From IMG/VR virus record IMGVR_UViG_3300042731_005304: DNA of 26,231 nt; one strand, given 5' to 3'. The DNA comes from a virus. Of this stretch, positions 10,214 through 12,267 are shown in pieces. Position 1 is the stretch's first letter; each line of letters starts with the position of its first letter. The notes under the pieces are model-generated. The model did no database searches. It was given only the letters and a program-made list of their open reading frames with translations, and was not told the DNA's origin. The position numbers were made by a program, and so were the translations under genes.

Positions 10214-10285
10214 AGCCGACTCCCGGGCTTGAACCGGGGACCTGCTGCTTACCATGCAGCTGCTCTACCGCTGAGCTAAGTCGGC
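10214..10285 (-). tRNA. tRNA-Thr (anticodon GGU)
   Basis: Minus-strand cloverleaf. Acceptor gccgact/agtcggc, D-arm gctc-agcggta-gagc, anticodon stem gctgc/gcagc with loop atGGTaa, T-arm cccgg-ttcaagc-ccggg. Confidence 0.75.
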
Positions 10286-10468
10286 AATGTCTTTAACTTT
10301 GCCGTGTCTCGGGCATACTCCATCTTTTAGATAGAACCAACATGTTCCGACACAATCACCGTCAGCCGTAAATTCGATTACAGGACAGTTGTTGGGCCAT
10401 GCTTTTTCAACGTAGCTATTTATCTGATATTCCTGCTTTTTCTTCCCAGACAAAATAATGAGCCTCAC
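10265..10468 (-). CDS. Small Cys-rich hypothetical protein, 67 aa. Doubtful
   Basis: It overlaps the tRNA-Thr by 21 nt and the nuclease gene's 3' end by 53 nt. It has a CPVIEF...DCVGTC...GVCPRHG Cys pattern. Confidence 0.25.
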   Translation of the reverse strand: MRLIILSGKKKQEYQINSYVEKAWPNNCPVIEFTADGDCVGTCWFYLKDGVCPRHGKVKDIADLAQR

Positions 10469-11174
10469 CTTCCAGTCGTTCTTCTAATTCATCTTCCAGC
10501 GTAGGGAAGAAATCTAAACCAGTTATATATTCAACAGTGTCGACTGTCACAACTGCTGTATAAAGGGGAGTTTTGCTTTTTTCATTTGTAAGAATAAAAG
10601 CAATCATCCTTATATCTGGCTCTCTATAATCAAGAATTACTTTGAAGTATCTCTTTGGCACTGAGACTTCGTTCTCTCCTATCGTTTCATAAGGGCCGTC
10701 AGTTAAAATTGGACCTGTGACTATGTAAAGCTCTTCATGTACGATAGCCCAATATCTAACCAGTGCCTCTAATTGCCTCCAAATATCCCTATTGAATCCT
10801 GGTACTTGTGGACTCATGTTGCTCATATAAAATGAATCATCCATAGCTTCTGCTGACCATTTCATATCACCTGCAGGAGCCAAATGACCTCTATCATATC
10901 CAGTACCTCTATAGTCGTCCAAAGTTGCTGTGCCAGTTACTATATTAGGATCCTCTCGAAAATTATTCTTTCTTGGGAACTCTCCAAGTGCTTCCTCTTT
11001 AGTTAAGTGATAAGCAACCCATAATGCCTGTTCATGTTCTTCACTGTAAACTAAAGAAAAACCTGTATATTCAAGAACTTCATCTTCTGTATACGGAAGC
11101 TCTAAAGCTTGCGCATTTGCAAAATAAACTGAAATCGCGAATAGCAATACTACGATAACAAATAACTTTCTCAT
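10416..11174 (-). CDS. Secreted DNA/RNA non-specific endonuclease (Serratia NucA / EndoG family, His-Me finger)
   Basis: N-terminal signal peptide MRKLFVIVVLLFAISVYFANA. The DRGHLAPAGD motif is the DRGH active site of beta-beta-alpha-Me non-specific nucleases. An Asn-containing metal-site region NMSPQ follows. Confidence 0.7.
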   Translation of the reverse strand: MRKLFVIVVLLFAISVYFANAQALELPYTEDEVLEYTGFSLVYSEEHEQALWVAYHLTKEEALGEFPRKNNFREDPNIVTGTATLDDYRGTGYDRGHLAPAGDMKWSAEAMDDSFYMSNMSPQVPGFNRDIWRQLEALVRYWAIVHEELYIVTGPILTDGPYETIGENEVSVPKRYFKVILDYREPDIRMIAFILTNEKSKTPLYTAVVTVDTVEYITGLDFFPTLEDELEERLEGEAHYFVWEEKAGISDK

Positions 11175-11182
11175 ATTTCCTC

Positions 11183-11518
11183 CTAAAAATACTCTATACT
11201 CAAATTCTCTGGTCTCATTGCATCATCTACTGCCAGTTGGATTTCTCTTTCTAGCTTAACCTTGTCAAGCGTTAGTTCTGATGCTTTTATTCTCAGCCAT
11301 CTTTCAAAGTCTGGATGCTTGGTCAGCCTCTTAAAAGCATTGCGAAGATTTTGTTCCTTGCTTCTCTCTTCTTGTCCAGTGACTATCACATTGCTTTCTG
11401 GGTGTTTTATTCTGCAACAGTTTCTATGCTTATTCCTGTGCTGACCACCAGCACCAGAACCAGAGAACCAAGTAATCTCTAGGTCTTTCTTAGTTACTGA
11501 AAACAAAAGTTGTTTCAT
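11183..11518 (-). CDS. ArfB/YaeJ-like peptidyl-tRNA hydrolase (GGQ-motif ribosome rescue factor domain)
   Basis: [22 protein letters not shown] matches ArfB [44 protein letters not shown] matches [22 protein letters not shown]. Length is 111 aa. It starts 2 nt after tRNA-Thr(CGU). Confidence 0.65.
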   Translation of the reverse strand: [111 protein letters not shown]

Positions 11519-11519
11519 A

Positions 11520-11593
11520 AGCCAACTCTGGGAGTCGAACCCAGGACCTTTCGCTTACGAGGCGAATGCTCTAGCCGGCTGAGCTAAGTTGGC
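11520..11593 (-). tRNA. tRNA-Thr (anticodon CGU)
   Basis: Minus-strand cloverleaf. Acceptor gccaact/agttggc, D-arm gctc-agccggcta-gagc, anticodon stem ttcgc/gcgaa with loop ctCGTaa, T-arm ctggg-ttcgact-cccag. Confidence 0.75.
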
Positions 11594-12026
11594 GCTCTTT
11601 CTTTTTGGCCTCTTCCTTCTTTTGCTTCTGCTCTCGTTCTCTCTGGATTCTTTTTATAGATGCATCCATTTTTGCCCTATGTCTGGCATGTCGGATTTCA
11701 TCCGGACAAGTTTTTCTACCTTTGCCCTTCAATCCTTCAAGGATAAAAAGATTGTCGCCACCAGTCATAATAGCTTCTTTCCAATATACTATCTTCCTGG
11801 CTAGATCGTCGTATGCTTTTTCAATATGCTTATTCGGAACTTGTCGAGTAGATATTATCTCCCAATCAACTCCACGAAACTTATCTGACCATGCATACTC
11901 ATCAGCAATTGGACGCACATAAAAATCTTCTATTTCTTCCTTGTCGAGGTCAGCGTCATACAGGGGCATATAGTTCCAATCAGAACATCCCCAGGCATGA
12001 CGAGTTCTTGTCTTAAGCCATTTCAT
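11571..12026 (-). CDS. Hypothetical protein with a Lys/Glu-rich C-terminal tail, 151 aa
   Basis: The ORF's last ~8 codons overlap the tRNA-Thr(CGU) 5' region. Confidence 0.45.
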   Translation of the reverse strand: MKWLKTRTRHAWGCSDWNYMPLYDADLDKEEIEDFYVRPIADEYAWSDKFRGVDWEIISTRQVPNKHIEKAYDDLARKIVYWKEAIMTGGDNLFILEGLKGKGRKTCPDEIRHARHRAKMDASIKRIQREREQKQKKEEAKKKERQLSSAG

Positions 12027-12038
12027 ATTATCACCTCT

Positions 12039-12112
12039 CGGAAGCGACGGGACTTGAACCCGCGATCTCCAGCTTGACAGGCTGGCGTCTTAACCAGCTA
12101 GACTACGCCTCC
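12039..12112 (-). tRNA. tRNA-Asp (anticodon GUC)
   Basis: Minus-strand cloverleaf. Acceptor ggaggcg/cgcttcc (one G-U), D-arm gtct-agctggtta-agac, anticodon stem ccagc/gctgg with loop ctGTCaa, T-arm gcggg-ttcaagt-cccgt. Confidence 0.75.
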
Positions 12113-12117
12113 ATTTC

Positions 12118-12190
12118 CGGAGCTAAGGGGAATCGAACCCCTATGACCAGATCGACAGTCTGGCATAATAAGCCGTTATATGATAGCTCC
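12118..12190 (-). tRNA. Second tRNA-Asp(GUC)-like gene, with an atypical D-arm and G37
   Basis: Acceptor ggagcta/tagctcc, anticodon stem ccaga/tctgg with loop ctGTCga, T-arm agggg-ttcgatt-cccct. The D-arm is AT-rich with only a ~3-bp stem. Confidence 0.55.
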
Positions 12191-12194
12191 ATTG

Positions 12195-12267
12195 AGCCGG
12201 TGGAGGGATTCGAACCCCCGTCTGGACATTACAAGTGTCCTGCTAAAGCCAACTCAGCTACACCGGC
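12195..12267 (-). tRNA. tRNA-Thr (anticodon UGU)
   Basis: Minus-strand cloverleaf. Acceptor gccggtg/caccggc, D-arm gctg-agttggctt-tagc, anticodon stem ggaca/tgtcc with loop ctTGTaa, T-arm ggggg-ttcgaat-ccctc. Confidence 0.75.

What the first reader, a model, noticed from the sequence alone, without database searches (positions are those of the whole stretch)
10214..12267. Complete threonine isoacceptor set plus duplicated Gln/Asp tRNAs, dispersed in small clusters
Three tRNA-Thr genes (GGU at 10214..10285, CGU at 11520..11593, UGU at 12195..12267) cover every ACN codon. Two tRNA-Gln (CUG, UUG) and two tRNA-Asp(GUC) are also present. The 12 tRNAs lie in four places (162..367, 5371..5443, 9457..9606, 10214..12267) interleaved with protein genes. 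Several ORFs overlap tRNA ends by 10-23 nt. This implies that RNase P/Z processing competes with translation of those mRNAs. The second Asp gene (12118..12190) has a degenerate D-arm and G37. It may be a decaying duplicate or a tRNA-like decoy for a host anticodon nuclease.
Basis: seen in the sequence. Interest (0 to 1): 0.55.

Follow-up and report, generated by a model that had tools for sequence, protein, structure and literature searches.

The report
Ordinary dispersed phage tRNA gene array
This stretch is part of the scattered tRNA gene set of an uncultivated large phage; the full threonine set, the two aspartate tRNAs and the protein genes that run a few bases into tRNAs are all real, but all three also occur in other tRNA-rich phages, so the finding is ordinary.

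Summary
These include Thr-GGU, Thr-CGU and Thr-UGU, Gln-CUG and Gln-UUG, and two Asp-GUC. An eleventh tRNA runs off the left edge, and there is a tmRNA at 19077-19343. Four same-strand ORFs end 10, 10, 21 and 23 nt inside a tRNA. In every case the stop codon is a TAG made of conserved tRNA bases (U8-A9-G10, or the D-loop). Two of these ORFs are conserved proteins, and one relative keeps the same 23-nt overlap. The annotated T5 genome and 21 unrelated tRNA-rich viral contigs show the same overlaps. This looks like genome compaction, not a special device. The second Asp tRNA does have G37 and a weak 3-bp A-U D-stem, but it is not a decaying duplicate. It is only 68% identical to its neighbour, its stems are kept by compensatory changes, and its anticodon arm (loop CUGUCGA) recurs in 33 viral contigs. 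In four of those it sits beside a second Asp tRNA with a different loop. Complete Thr sets also recur. Verdict: a functional phage tRNA array, a new member of a known kind. A role in evading host nucleases, or a link to ribosome rescue, is possible but untested.

The parts
12195..12267 (-). tRNA-Thr(UGU). It is the first gene of a tandem of three tRNAs. The upstream ORF (12274-12450) stops 6 nt before its 5' end.
   Evidence: 64.6 bits; cloverleaf fold; junction.
12118..12190 (-). tRNA-Asp(GUC) type 2. Anticodon loop CUGUCGA (G37, A38). Weak D-stem of three A-U pairs plus U.U. Perfect 7-bp acceptor stem, 5-bp anticodon stem and 5-bp T stem.
   Evidence: (57 bits). The same arm occurs in 33 viral tRNA-Asp genes, and L102 has a close homologue.
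12039..12112 (-). tRNA-Asp(GUC) type 1. Anticodon loop CUGUCAA (A37, A38). Nearly identical to the tRNA-Asp of relative L024. Its 3' end lies 12 nt before the ATG of ORF151, and the Shine-Dalgarno-like GAGAGGTGA overlaps the tRNA's last base.
   Evidence: (71.2 bits).
11571..12026 (-). ORF151, a conserved phage protein of unknown function. Its last 7 codons and its TAG stop lie inside tRNA-Thr(CGU), a 23-nt overlap.
   Evidence: 10 homologues at 41-51% identity. P0008 on L007 ends in the same RQLSSAG* with the same 23-nt overlap. 33 related metagenome loci. Structure model pLDDT 94, with no PDB fold match.
11520..11593 (-). tRNA-Thr(CGU). It is conserved directly downstream of ORF151 homologues in L001, L007 and L020 and lies nearby in L021, L024 and L025.
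   Evidence: (69.3 bits). 13 of 23 pairs show compensatory changes across 7 orthologues.
11183..11518 (-). Stand-alone GGQ (RF-1 domain) protein of 111 aa. Its ATG starts 1 nt after the 3' end of tRNA-Thr(CGU), with no Shine-Dalgarno sequence.
   Evidence: PF00472, 58.9 bits. Below the ArfB, PrfH, RF1 and RF2 cut-offs. About 40% identical to the RF-1 domain proteins of cluster C mycobacteriophages. Best PDB matches are RF2/RF1 domain 3 and C12orf65. Absent from the syntenic loci L020 and L024.
10416..11174 (-). DNA/RNA non-specific endonuclease with an N-terminal signal peptide, lying between Thr-CGU and Thr-GGU. The arrangement is syntenic in L020 and L024.
   Evidence: PF01223, 188.7 bits; 61-72% identity in L020 and L024.
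10265..10468 (-). ORF67, a possible small Cys-rich protein with no ATG start. Its TAG stop lies in the D-loop of tRNA-Thr(GGU), a 21-nt overlap. It is doubtful as a gene.
   Evidence: Codon-usage score is gene-like, 0.37 bits per codon in frame. There are no family hits. The ORF at the same place in L024 is not visibly homologous.
10214..10285 (-). tRNA-Thr(GGU). The ATG of ORF85 (9955-10212) starts 1 nt after its 3' end.
   Evidence: (66.2 bits).
9597..9974 (-). ORF125, a conserved protein family. Its TAG stop is U8-A9-G10 of tRNA-Gln(UUG), a 10-nt overlap.
   Evidence: 78 homologues in the representative library, matching up to residues 120-123 of 125. Exact copies on two JGI contigs, where it was called with the same end.
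9535..9606 (-). tRNA-Gln(UUG), with U1-A72 and G73.
   Evidence: (67.4 bits).
9458..9531 (-). tRNA with CAU anticodon, 3 nt after Gln-UUG. It has G1.U72 and lacks the three G-C pairs in the anticodon stem, so it is not an initiator. It is Met by default; an Ile2 (lysidine) tRNA is not excluded.
   Evidence: (62 bits).
5371..5443 (-). tRNA-Gln(CUG). The upstream ORF130 (5434-5826) stops at its U8-A9-G10, a 10-nt overlap.
   Evidence: (68.9 bits). ORF130 codon score is 0.35 bits per codon.
294..367 (-). tRNA-Ile(UAU), which reads AUA. AUA makes up 34% of the Ile codons in the window.
   Evidence: (73.6 bits).
162..234 (-). tRNA-Glu(UUC).
   Evidence: 57.8 bits. 85% identical to the tRNA-Glu of L001.
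1..17 (-). The 5' fragment of a further tRNA (tccaccGTAGCTCAGT) running off the window. The array continues beyond the left edge.
   Evidence: Read directly from the sequence.
12472..12493 (-). Intrinsic-terminator-like hairpin (GGGCTTCC-CCTGTC-GGAAGCCC followed by TTTTTTG) upstream of the tRNA/ORF block. No comparably strong terminator follows on this strand down to about 9450.
19077..19343 (-). Phage tmRNA with tag GEEQFLMAA*. The upstream ORF (19345-19704) stops 1 nt before its 5' end.
   Evidence: (73.4 bits against a threshold of 47).

Best explanation
The finding covers part of a dispersed tRNA gene array in an uncultivated large phage, probably one with a very large genome. At least 11 tRNA genes sit singly or in tandems of two or three, on the same strand as densely packed small protein genes.

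Inferred mechanism: the tRNAs are transcribed together with these genes. The 3-kb block 12470-9450 has a terminator-like hairpin upstream and none inside. Host RNase P cuts each tRNA out at its 5' end. An RNase Z-type activity cuts the 3' end, and the host CCA-adding enzyme completes it, because none of the ten genes encodes CCA. The tRNAs then serve in translating phage mRNAs, so the phage depends less on the host tRNA pool for ACN, CAR, GAY, AUA, GAR and AUG codons.

The ORF/tRNA overlaps are a by-product of compaction. Where a gene has no stop codon of its own before the tRNA, translation stops at a TAG formed by conserved tRNA bases: U8-A9-G10 gives the 10-nt overlaps, and the D-loop UAG gives the 21- and 23-nt overlaps. 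The second tRNA-Asp is a functional member of a recurrent phage tRNA-Asp variant (G37, A38), not a decaying copy.

Shown here: the genes, their structures, their conservation with compensatory changes, the junction geometry, and its recurrence in other phages. Inferred: co-transcription, the processing route, aminoacylation, and why the tRNAs are beneficial.
For: - Two predictors agree on all ten tRNAs.
- The cloverleaf is supported by compensatory changes across orthologues from relatives: 13 of 23 pairs for Thr-CGU and 11 of 21 for Asp.
- Relatives carry the same architecture. L001, from a 191-kb contig, has 21 tRNAs in 20 kb, including Thr UGU, GGU and CGU and Gln UUG and CUG. The order tRNA-Asp, ORF151, tRNA-Thr(CGU), nuclease, tRNA-Thr(GGU) recurs in L020-L025.
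- Among relatives, 24 of 31 ORF-to-tRNA junctions lie within 12 nt of the tRNA start or overlap it.
- Every overlap of 10 nt or more in the window uses TAG. So do all those in the relatives except one likely spurious ORF.
- The annotated T5 genome has the same interleaving, with CDS/tRNA overlaps of 6, 14, 23 and 24 nt and one junction with no gap.
- In 21 unrelated tRNA-rich viral loci, 44 of 110 junctions overlap, with a peak at +10.
- No tRNA here is followed by CCA.
- AUA makes up 34% of Ile codons, which fits tRNA-Ile(UAU).
- The MVP-like protein next to the array matches only 462-kb and 735-kb uncultured phages in the phage collection. Huge phages are reported to carry up to 67 tRNAs plus tmRNAs and release factors (PMC7162821).
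- Complete Thr sets occur in 5 of 17 Thr-carrying viral loci, and Asp(GUC) genes with differing loops occur together in 4 loci.
Against: - No expression, processing or charging data exist.
- Codon supply does not explain tRNA-Thr(CGU). ACG is only 13% of Thr codons and 0.6% of all codons, and UGU plus GGU would suffice, yet Thr-CGU is the best conserved tRNA of the clade.
- The host is unknown, so phage and host codon usage could not be compared.
- The promoter scan is uninformative: 39 sites found against 38.9 expected. Co-transcription therefore rests only on the tight spacing and the lack of terminators.
- One of the four overlapping ORFs (ORF67) may not be a gene.
Confidence: 0.8

Rival explanations
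1. Counter-defence. The tRNAs are kept mainly because the host, or a competing element, cleaves or depletes particular tRNAs during infection. The phage copies carry substitutions in the anticodon arm that make them insensitive. On this reading the G37/A38 tRNA-Asp beside a second Asp tRNA, and the full Thr set, are replacements for targeted host tRNAs.
For: - Asp type 2 has the loop CUGUCGA. T5 and L117_b have CUGUCAC, which is also the E. coli and B. subtilis consensus (my knowledge).
- The same arm recurs on 33 viral tRNA-Asp genes with very different backbones.
- Two or three Asp genes with different loops co-occur in L065, L074, L117 and L124.
- Position 37 of Asp tRNAs in relatives is A, G or U.
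- Thr-CGU is conserved although ACG is rare.
- Published precedent: phage tRNAs with anticodon-loop changes are predicted to escape VapC, PrrC and colicins D and E5 (PMC10264068). E. coli AriB of the PARIS system cleaves tRNA-Lys(UUU) and Thr(UGU), and more weakly Asn(GUU) and Thr(CGU). The T5 tRNA variants rescue infection (PMC12409363).
Against: - The host, and any nuclease it may have, are unknown.
- No tRNA-Lys or tRNA-Asn is seen in the window.
- The Thr anticodon loops are canonical (U33, A37, A38).
- The canonical bacterial Asp arm is also common in viral contigs: at least 120 pattern hits. These hits were not checked to be tRNA genes.
- Recurrence of a variant does not show resistance.
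Confidence: 0.3
2. Processing-coupled expression and ribosome rescue. The tRNAs act as punctuation, as in mitochondria. RNase P cleavage at +1 removes the embedded stop codon from ORF151, ORF125, ORF130 and ORF67, which turns them into non-stop messages. Their output is then set by the race between ribosomes and RNase P. The stalled ribosomes are cleared by the phage's own tmRNA and by the stand-alone GGQ protein. That protein's message would become nearly leaderless after the 3' cleavage of tRNA-Thr(CGU).
For: - Four stop codons lie 8-23 nt inside tRNAs.
- The 23-nt ORF151/Thr-CGU overlap is conserved in L007. L020 has a 10-nt overlap of its ORF151 homologue with Thr-CGU, and L024 a 10-nt overlap with tRNA-Asp.
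- The ATG of the GGQ gene lies 1 nt after the tRNA 3' end, with no Shine-Dalgarno sequence.
- The tmRNA is 7 kb away, and an ORF abuts its 5' end.
- Precedent for regulation through loss of a stop codon: arfA mRNA (PMC10107115 abstract).
Against: - T5 has the same overlaps. No tmRNA or RF-like gene is annotated in the 45-kb stretch of T5 examined.
- The overlaps are generic in tRNA-rich phages.
- The GGQ gene is absent from the syntenic relatives L020 and L024, which keep the overlaps.
- The ClpP-like gene nearby scores best as a head-maturation protease, not as a ClpP that degrades tagged proteins.
- No SmpB was found in the window.
- The literature search found no precedent for this in phages.
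Confidence: 0.12
3. The second tRNA-Asp (12118-12190) is a decaying duplicate or a non-functional tRNA-like remnant.
For: - It has the lowest Rfam score of the ten, 57 bits.
- Thermodynamic folding alone does not find its D-stem.
- It has A10 instead of G10, a U13.U22 mismatch and G37.
Against: - It is only 68% identical to the neighbouring Asp gene, so it is not a recent copy.
- Its score equals that of tRNA-Glu, 57.8 bits.
- Its acceptor, anticodon and T stems are perfect, and G18G19, U8, U33 and the T-loop are present.
- The D-stem pairs are kept by changes on both sides.
- A homologue about 82% identical, by my reading of the two sequences, has the same D-stem register in L102.
- The same anticodon arm occurs in L022 and L023 and in 33 viral contigs.
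Confidence: 0.05

Closest known systems
tRNA gene region of Escherichia phage T5 (Tequintavirus), as annotated in NC_005859
   Same: - tRNA genes lie singly and in small tandems among small same-strand ORFs, with HNH endonuclease genes in or near the region.
- Both Gln isoacceptors are present.
- CDS 3' ends overlap tRNA 5' ends by 6-24 nt or abut them.
- Small stable RNAs lie between the tRNAs in T5. A structured 145-nt spacer may be the counterpart here.
   Different: - There is no nucleotide similarity.
- The T5 tRNA-Asp compared here ends in an encoded CCA; none of the ten tRNAs here encodes CCA.
- T5 has one Thr tRNA and one Asp tRNA.
- No tmRNA or GGQ protein is annotated in the 45-kb T5 stretch examined.
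Cluster C mycobacteriophages (Bixzunavirus: Bxz1, ScottMcG, Colt)
   Same: They combine many tRNAs, a tmRNA (PMC4131195) and a short RF-1 domain protein that is 36-40% identical to the one here.
   Different: - In Colt the RF-1 gene lies among replication genes, not next to a tRNA.
- The Colt tRNAs seen are spaced from their CDSs, for example by a 124-nt gap.
- These phages have an actinobacterial host and an unrelated genome.
Huge phages of Al-Shayeb et al. 2020 (including LR756500, 462 kb, and LR756501, 735 kb)
   Same: - They have large translation-related gene sets: up to 67 tRNAs, tmRNAs and release factors (PMC7162821).
- In the phage collection, the only matches to the MVP-like protein at 694-3375 are these genomes, at 45-49% identity.
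   Different: - No tRNAs lie within 20 kb of the MVP-like gene in those genomes.
- The genome size and clade of this phage are unknown.
- Many genes here have GGAGG-type ribosome-binding sites (19 of 37).
Mitochondrial tRNA punctuation of polycistronic transcripts
   Same: Protein genes abut or overlap tRNA genes on one strand with no spacer, so excising the tRNA would define the mRNA ends.
   Different: - This is a bacterial virus.
- The stop codons are complete and lie inside the tRNA, rather than being completed by polyadenylation.
- Processing has not been shown.
Phage tRNAs with anticodon-arm substitutions that escape tRNA-targeting defences (van den Berg et al. 2023; T5 tRNA-Lys, Thr and Asn against PARIS AriB)
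   Same: A phage tRNA (Asp type 2) differs from the bacterial consensus at positions 37 and 38. It recurs across phages and is often paired with a second Asp tRNA.
   Different: No nuclease, host or cleavage data exist for this case. The published examples concern other tRNAs and known enzymes.

Membership tests
tRNA (Rfam RF00005) | Covariance-model score above the curated threshold, with full-length model coverage | tested here: met
   All ten loci score 57-73.6 bits against a threshold of 29, covering model positions 1-71 of 71. ARAGORN assigns the same anticodons.
tRNA (Rfam RF00005) | Cloverleaf maintained by compensatory substitutions among homologues | tested here: met
   Thr-CGU: 13 of 23 pairs have changes on both sides across 7 sequences. 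Asp: 11 of 21 pairs across 6 sequences.
tRNA (Rfam RF00005) | Expressed, processed, CCA-tailed and aminoacylated | not testable with these tools
   This needs tRNA sequencing of infected cells. No gene encodes CCA.
Complete threonine isoacceptor set | Anticodons that together read ACU, ACC, ACA and ACG | tested here: met
   GGU, CGU and UGU are present. The same set occurs in relative L001 and in 5 of 17 other viral loci that carry Thr tRNAs.
tRNA pseudogene or decaying duplicate (second Asp) | High similarity to a parent copy, plus disrupted stems that are not compensated | tested here: not met
   It is 68% identical to the neighbouring Asp gene. All four stems pair, and the D-stem is compensated.
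tRNA pseudogene or decaying duplicate (second Asp) | Not conserved in other genomes | tested here: not met
   L102 has a homologue about 82% identical (my reading of the two sequences) with the same D-stem. 33 viral tRNA-Asp genes share the anticodon arm, and so do L022 and L023.
T5-type dispersed phage tRNA region | tRNAs interleaved with same-strand small ORFs, with ORF 3' ends abutting or overlapping tRNA 5' ends | tested here: met
   Window junctions are at +23, +21, +10, +10 and -6 nt. T5 junctions are at +24, +23, +14, +6 and 0 nt.
T5-type dispersed phage tRNA region | Sequence relationship to Tequintavirus | tested here: not met
   Megablast against the phage collection gives no match. 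ORF151 has no tblastn hit in phage records. The region therefore resembles T5 in layout but is not a member of that genus.
Huge phages (genome above 200 kb) with an expanded translation gene set | Genome above 200 kb | not testable with these tools
   Only 26 kb is available. Exact look-ups of window proteins found either no contig or only 1.2-kb contigs of the same phage. A relative's contig (L001) is 191 kb.
Huge phages (genome above 200 kb) with an expanded translation gene set | tRNAs together with a tmRNA and release-factor-like genes | tested here: met
   described for huge phages in PMC7162821.
tmRNA (Rfam RF00023) | Score above threshold, and a tag reading frame ending in AA followed by a stop codon | tested here: met
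   73.4 bits against a threshold of 47; tag GEEQFLMAA*. No SmpB gene was found among the window ORFs scanned.
ArfB (alternative ribosome-rescue peptidyl-tRNA hydrolase) | GGQ domain plus family-level sequence match, including the C-terminal tail | tested here: not met
   The GGQ motif is present. However, the NCBIfam ArfB score is 27.2 bits against a cut-off of 100, and only residues 7-32 align. It is a stand-alone RF-1 domain protein.
Nuclease-insensitive phage tRNA variant | Anticodon-arm substitutions relative to the host tRNA at or near a nuclease cleavage site | tested here: inconclusive
   The loop is CUGUCGA, against the bacterial-type CUGUCAC. The host tRNA and any nuclease are unknown.
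tRNA punctuation (processing-defined mRNA ends) | Excision of the tRNA by RNase P and RNase Z generates the ends of the flanking mRNAs | not testable with these tools
   Only the geometry is shown. This needs mapping of 5' and 3' transcript ends.

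The most novel reading that the evidence does not exclude
In this phage lineage the tRNAs double as processing signals that control the flanking genes. RNase P cleavage strips the stop codon, which is embedded in tRNA nucleotides 8-10 or 19-23, from the upstream ORFs. This creates non-stop messages whose yield depends on a race between ribosomes and RNase P. The phage's own tmRNA and a stand-alone GGQ peptidyl-tRNA hydrolase clear the stalled ribosomes. 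The hydrolase is itself translated from a nearly leaderless mRNA made by 3' cleavage of tRNA-Thr(CGU). A second, less novel possibility is that the recurrent G37/A38 tRNA-Asp, carried beside a second Asp tRNA, resists an as yet unknown Asp-specific anticodon nuclease.
Probability: 0.12. Interest if true: 0.6.

Novelty: new member of a known kind. Interest (0 to 1): 0.3.

Why it matters
As it stands, this adds one more uncultivated large phage with its own tRNAs, tmRNA and a release-factor-like protein. It also shows that three features which look odd in a single window are common in tRNA-rich phages:
- a full Thr set;
- two Asp tRNAs with different anticodon loops;
- ORFs that end inside tRNAs.

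Two by-products may be useful to specialists. First, a G37/A38 tRNA-Asp variant recurs in at least 33 viral contigs and often sits beside a second Asp tRNA. This is a concrete candidate for testing the idea that phage tRNAs evade anticodon nucleases. Second, phage ORFs often terminate on the conserved U8-A9-G10 of a downstream tRNA. Excision of the tRNA and termination of translation are then mutually exclusive on one transcript. I found no study of this in phages.

Tried and rejected
- **No close relative in the public collections.** Megablast of 9000-13000 against the phage collection gave no match. Back-translated searches of IMG/VR with the nuclease and the cysteine desulfurase gave no relatives. 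Exact tRNA-Thr(CGU) patterns in IMG/VR gave none.
- **The source genome could not be recovered.** Exact-protein look-ups for the GGQ protein and the MVP-like protein found nothing on record. ORF125 is found only on two 1.2-kb contigs of the same phage.
- **The huge-phage link gave no matching layout.** The neighbourhoods of the MVP-like gene in LR756500 and LR756501 contain no tRNAs.
- **The function of ORF151 stays unknown.** The model is confident (pLDDT 94), but no PDB fold matches at E <= 0.001 (best 0.79). There are no Pfam, NCBIfam or PHROG hits.
- **The ClpP idea was dropped.** I considered that the ClpP-like gene (8658-9278) might degrade tmRNA-tagged proteins. Its best NCBIfam match is the ClpP-related head-maturation protease.
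- **The host was not identified.** Genomic relatives of the Thg1-like protein are scattered over Bacteroidetes, Deltaproteobacteria, Nocardia, Clostridia and archaeal genome bins.
- **The promoter scan is uninformative.** It found 39 sites against 38.9 expected.
- **No extra tRNAs.** A permissive Rfam search for the two 'missing' tRNAs found none.
- **No literature precedent.** Searches for phage ORF stop codons inside tRNAs, or for a link to ribosome rescue, found no direct precedent.

Full report

ARAGORN and an Rfam covariance-model scan independently find the same ten tRNA genes, all on the minus strand:
- Glu-UUC 162-234
- Ile-UAU 294-367
- Gln-CUG 5371-5443
- Met-CAU 9458-9531
- Gln-UUG 9535-9606
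- Thr-GGU 10214-10285
- Thr-CGU 11520-11593
- Asp-GUC 12039-12112
- Asp-GUC 12118-12190
- Thr-UGU 12195-12267

Scores are 57-73.6 bits against a threshold of 29.

The count of 12 is wrong. The last 17 bases of the window on that strand (tccaccGTAGCTCAGT) look like the 5' end of an eleventh tRNA that runs off the edge. The array therefore continues outside the window. Both tools also report a tmRNA at 19077-19343 with tag GEEQFLMAA* (73.4 bits, threshold 47).

**2. What surrounds it?**

Nearly all genes lie on the minus strand, and G+C is about 41%. Pfam, NCBIfam and PHROG assignments give:
- a major-vault-protein-like/SPFH protein
- two thymidylate-synthase-like proteins
- a DHH phosphoesterase
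- an isochorismatase
- a ClpP-related head-maturation protease
- a secreted non-specific endonuclease (10416-11174)
- a 111-aa stand-alone RF-1/GGQ protein (11183-11518)
- a NifS/IscS-type cysteine desulfurase
- an HNH endonuclease
- a ribonucleotide reductase
- a 5'-nucleotidase
- a minimal Pol X
- a radical SAM protein
- a Thg1-like protein
- an ATP-dependent DNA ligase

There is no nucleotide match in the phage collection. In that collection the MVP-like protein matches only uncultured phages of 462 kb and 735 kb, at 45-49% identity. Those genomes have no tRNAs near that gene. The best cultured-phage matches to the GGQ protein are the RF-1 domain proteins of cluster C mycobacteriophages, at 36-40% identity. 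Those phages also carry tRNAs and a tmRNA (PMC4131195). Huge phages are described as carrying up to 67 tRNAs, tmRNAs and release factors (PMC7162821). This gene content places the window in a large uncultivated phage. The same phage appears as 1.2-kb contigs in two JGI metagenomes.

**3. Relatives and conservation**

ORF151 (11571-12026) has 10 homologues at 41-51% identity and 33 related metagenome loci. Their contexts show the same architecture.
- L001, from a 191-kb contig, has 21 tRNAs in 20 kb scattered among small ORFs. They include Thr UGU, GGU and CGU and Gln UUG and CUG.
- L024 reads ORF151, tRNA-Asp, ORF295, tRNA-Thr(CGU), nuclease (72% identical), tRNA-Thr(GGU).
- L020 reads ORF151, tRNA-Thr(CGU), nuclease (61%), tRNA-Gln(UUG), isochorismatase.

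The Thr set and the order Asp, ORF151, Thr-CGU, nuclease, Thr-GGU are therefore ancestral to a clade, not a peculiarity of this window. Across seven Thr-CGU orthologues, 13 of 23 cloverleaf pairs show changes on both sides. Across six Asp tRNAs, 11 of 21 do. That is the signature of functional tRNAs.

**4. The ORF/tRNA overlaps**

Four same-strand ORFs end inside the 5' part of a tRNA, by 23, 21, 10 and 10 nt. In each case the stop is a TAG built from conserved tRNA bases. U8-A9-G10 gives the two 10-nt cases, and the D-loop UAG gives the 21- and 23-nt cases.

How good are these four ORFs as genes?
- ORF151 is a conserved protein.
- ORF125 (9597-9974) has 78 homologues, which align up to residues 120-123 of 125.
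- ORF130 has gene-like codon usage.
- ORF67 also has gene-like codon usage. It has no ATG start, and the ORF at the same place in L024 is not visibly homologous, so it remains doubtful.

The homologue P0008 on L007 ends in the same RQLSSAG* and overlaps its tRNA-Thr(CGU) by the same 23 nt. In L020 the ORF151 homologue overlaps tRNA-Thr(CGU) by 10 nt, and in L024 it overlaps tRNA-Asp by 10 nt. In L001 the gene stops 10 nt before the tRNA.

Among relatives, 24 of 31 ORF-to-tRNA junctions lie within 12 nt or overlap, and 12 of them lie exactly at -1 to +3. Downstream, two ATGs in the window start 1 nt after a tRNA 3' end: the GGQ gene after Thr-CGU and ORF85 after Thr-GGU. The ORF upstream of the tmRNA stops 1 nt before it.

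A terminator-like hairpin lies at 12493-12472, and none of similar quality follows down to about 9450. This fits one ORF/tRNA co-transcript of about 3 kb. None of the ten tRNAs is followed by CCA.

**5. Is that special? Controls say no.**

The annotated T5 genome has the same interleaving, with annotated CDS/tRNA overlaps of 6, 14, 23 and 24 nt and one junction with no gap. In 21 unrelated tRNA-rich viral loci, 44 of 110 mechanically called junctions overlap by at least 4 nt, with a clear peak at +10. A further 34 lie within 12 nt. The overlaps are therefore a general consequence of compaction in phage tRNA regions. An ORF without its own stop is terminated by the TAGs that any tRNA offers in two of the three reading frames.

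RNase P cuts at +1, upstream of these stops, so processing and complete translation exclude each other on a single transcript. This could not be tested here.

**6. The second Asp tRNA**

G37 is confirmed (loop CUGUCGA). The D-stem is weak (A10-U25, U11-A24, A12-U23, U13.U22), and thermodynamic folding alone misses it. Several results argue against decay.
- The gene is only 68% identical to its neighbour.
- Its other three stems are perfect.
- Its D-stem pairs are compensated relative to homologues.
- The G37/A38 arm also occurs in the Asp tRNAs of relatives L022 and L023.

A scan of IMG/VR for the arm CCWGA-CUGUCGA-UCWGG returned 76 hits. Of these, 33 are tRNA-Asp(GUC) genes with very different backbones, many of them in tRNA-rich contigs of up to 476 kb. 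One, L102, is about 82% identical to the window gene by my reading of the two sequences. It has the same D-stem register, and that contig also has a tmRNA with the same geometry. L065, L074, L117 and L124 each carry two or three Asp(GUC) genes with different anticodon loops. The window gene is thus a member of a recurrent phage tRNA-Asp variant that is often kept beside a second Asp tRNA. The bacterial-type arm is still commoner as a pattern in viral contigs, with at least 120 hits; those hits were not checked to be tRNA genes.

**7. Why keep these tRNAs?**

Codon usage over 37 window genes (7,486 codons) gives a mixed answer.
- AUA is 34% of Ile codons, which fits tRNA-Ile(UAU).
- Thr is 4.7% of codons, and ACG is only 13% of Thr.
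- Codon demand therefore does not explain the well-conserved Thr-CGU.

That gap, and the Asp variant, are compatible with the published idea that phage tRNAs replace host tRNAs destroyed by anticodon nucleases (PMC10264068). PARIS AriB cleaves Lys-UUU and Thr-UGU, and more weakly Asn-GUU and Thr-CGU, and the T5 tRNA variants rescue infection (PMC12409363). Here, however, the host and any nuclease are unknown. Homologues of the Thg1-like protein are taxonomically scattered and give no host call. About half of the genes have GGAGG-type ribosome-binding sites.

**8. Ribosome-rescue link (speculative)**

Several things could be connected: stop codons inside tRNAs, a phage tmRNA, a stand-alone GGQ protein whose ATG abuts a tRNA 3' end, and the precedent of arfA, whose non-stop mRNA is regulated by trans-translation (PMC10107115).

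Against this:
- T5 has the overlaps, and no rescue genes are annotated in the 45-kb stretch examined.
- The overlaps are generic.
- The GGQ gene is missing from syntenic relatives that keep the overlaps.
- The ClpP-like protein is a head protease.
- No SmpB was found.

I give this reading about 12%.

**9. Verdict**

This is a functional, dispersed phage tRNA array, a new member of a known kind. Complete Thr sets occur in 5 of 17 other Thr-carrying viral loci, and the paired Asp tRNAs and the ORF overlaps recur as well. Overall interest is modest. The recurrent G37/A38 tRNA-Asp, and the widespread use of U8-A9-G10 as a stop codon, are the two points that could repay experiments.

Noticed in passing
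window 19077-19343 (-): A phage-encoded tmRNA, short at about 265 nt, with tag GEEQFLMAA*. The upstream ORF 19345-19704 stops 1 nt before its 5' end. No SmpB gene was found in the window. A tmRNA with the same internal geometry (tag DEFDYALAA*) is on the tRNA-rich viral contig L102.
   Followed up: partly
window 11183-11518 (-): A stand-alone 111-aa GGQ (RF-1 domain) protein lies inside the tRNA block. Its ATG is 1 nt after the 3' end of tRNA-Thr(CGU), with no Shine-Dalgarno sequence. It scores below the ArfB, PrfH and RF1/2 cut-offs. Its closest cultured-phage relatives are the RF-1 proteins of cluster C mycobacteriophages. It is absent from the syntenic relatives L020 and L024.
   Followed up: partly
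window 23283-24059 (-), with 22349-23281 and 21576-22127: A Thg1-like protein (tRNA-His guanylyltransferase family; E 5.6e-56 to the Bacillus thuringiensis TLP structure 4kgk) lies next to a radical SAM protein. A 183-aa minimal Pol X (palm plus thumb) and an ATP-dependent DNA ligase lie nearby. Bacterial Thg1-like proteins repair truncated tRNA 5' ends (my knowledge), so this could belong to the phage's tRNA maintenance. L027 has a 56% identical copy next to an ORF151 homologue.
   Followed up: partly
window 18-162 (-) and 235-293 (-): The 145-nt spacer between tRNA-Glu and the cut-off tRNA folds into a closed multi-branch structure with an 11-bp closing stem. MFE is -51 kcal/mol against -39.2 +/- 3.8 for shuffles (z -3.2; 0 of 200 shuffles fold as well). 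There is no Rfam match. The 59-nt spacer between Ile and Glu forms a 9-bp hairpin (z -4.3). These may be small stable RNAs like those in the T4 and T5 tRNA regions.
   Followed up: partly
window 11520-11593 and 294-367 (-): The anticodon arm and variable loop of tRNA-Thr(CGU) and tRNA-Ile(UAU) are identical (CAUUCGCCU-NNN-AAGCGAAAGGUC) except for two anticodon bases. Thr-CGU orthologues in relatives have different anticodon stems. This suggests a recent exchange of anticodon arms within the genome, or an anticodon shift.
   Followed up: no
window 162-234, 294-367, 9458-9531 (-): Three tRNAs (Glu, Ile and the CAU tRNA) have a G1.U72 wobble pair at the top of the acceptor stem, plus A73. The tRNA-Glu of L001 has the same feature.
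   Followed up: no
L001 13953-14432: A GOLLD RNA (155.7 bits, threshold 150) lies inside the tRNA region of the 191-kb relative. It has an embedded tRNA-like element that ARAGORN reads with a 4-base anticodon (tgag). No GOLLD RNA was found in the window.
   Followed up: no
L001 2819-2893; L037 1762-1833: The tRNA-Asp(GUC) genes of these two phage contigs have U at position 37 (loop CUGUCUA). A pyrimidine at position 37 is very unusual. Across this set of Asp tRNAs, position 37 is A, G or U.
   Followed up: no
window 694-3375 (-): An 893-aa protein has major-vault-protein shoulder, vault repeat and SPFH/Band 7 domains. In the phage collection it matches only uncultured phages of 462 kb and 735 kb (45-49% identity). 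L034 has a fragment 62% identical.
   Followed up: partly
window 3615-4433 and 4442-5335 (-): Two adjacent, divergent thymidylate-synthase-like genes give weak Pfam matches (about 30 bits each). They could be pyrimidine hydroxymethylases or similar DNA-modification enzymes rather than ThyA.
   Followed up: no
L028 14760-14834: On a 264-kb contig that encodes a distant ORF151 relative, ARAGORN calls a tRNA with a CUA anticodon (reported as Pyl). This is a possible amber suppressor, which would hint at stop-codon recoding in that phage. In the window, TAG is used as a normal stop in 9 of 37 genes.
   Followed up: no
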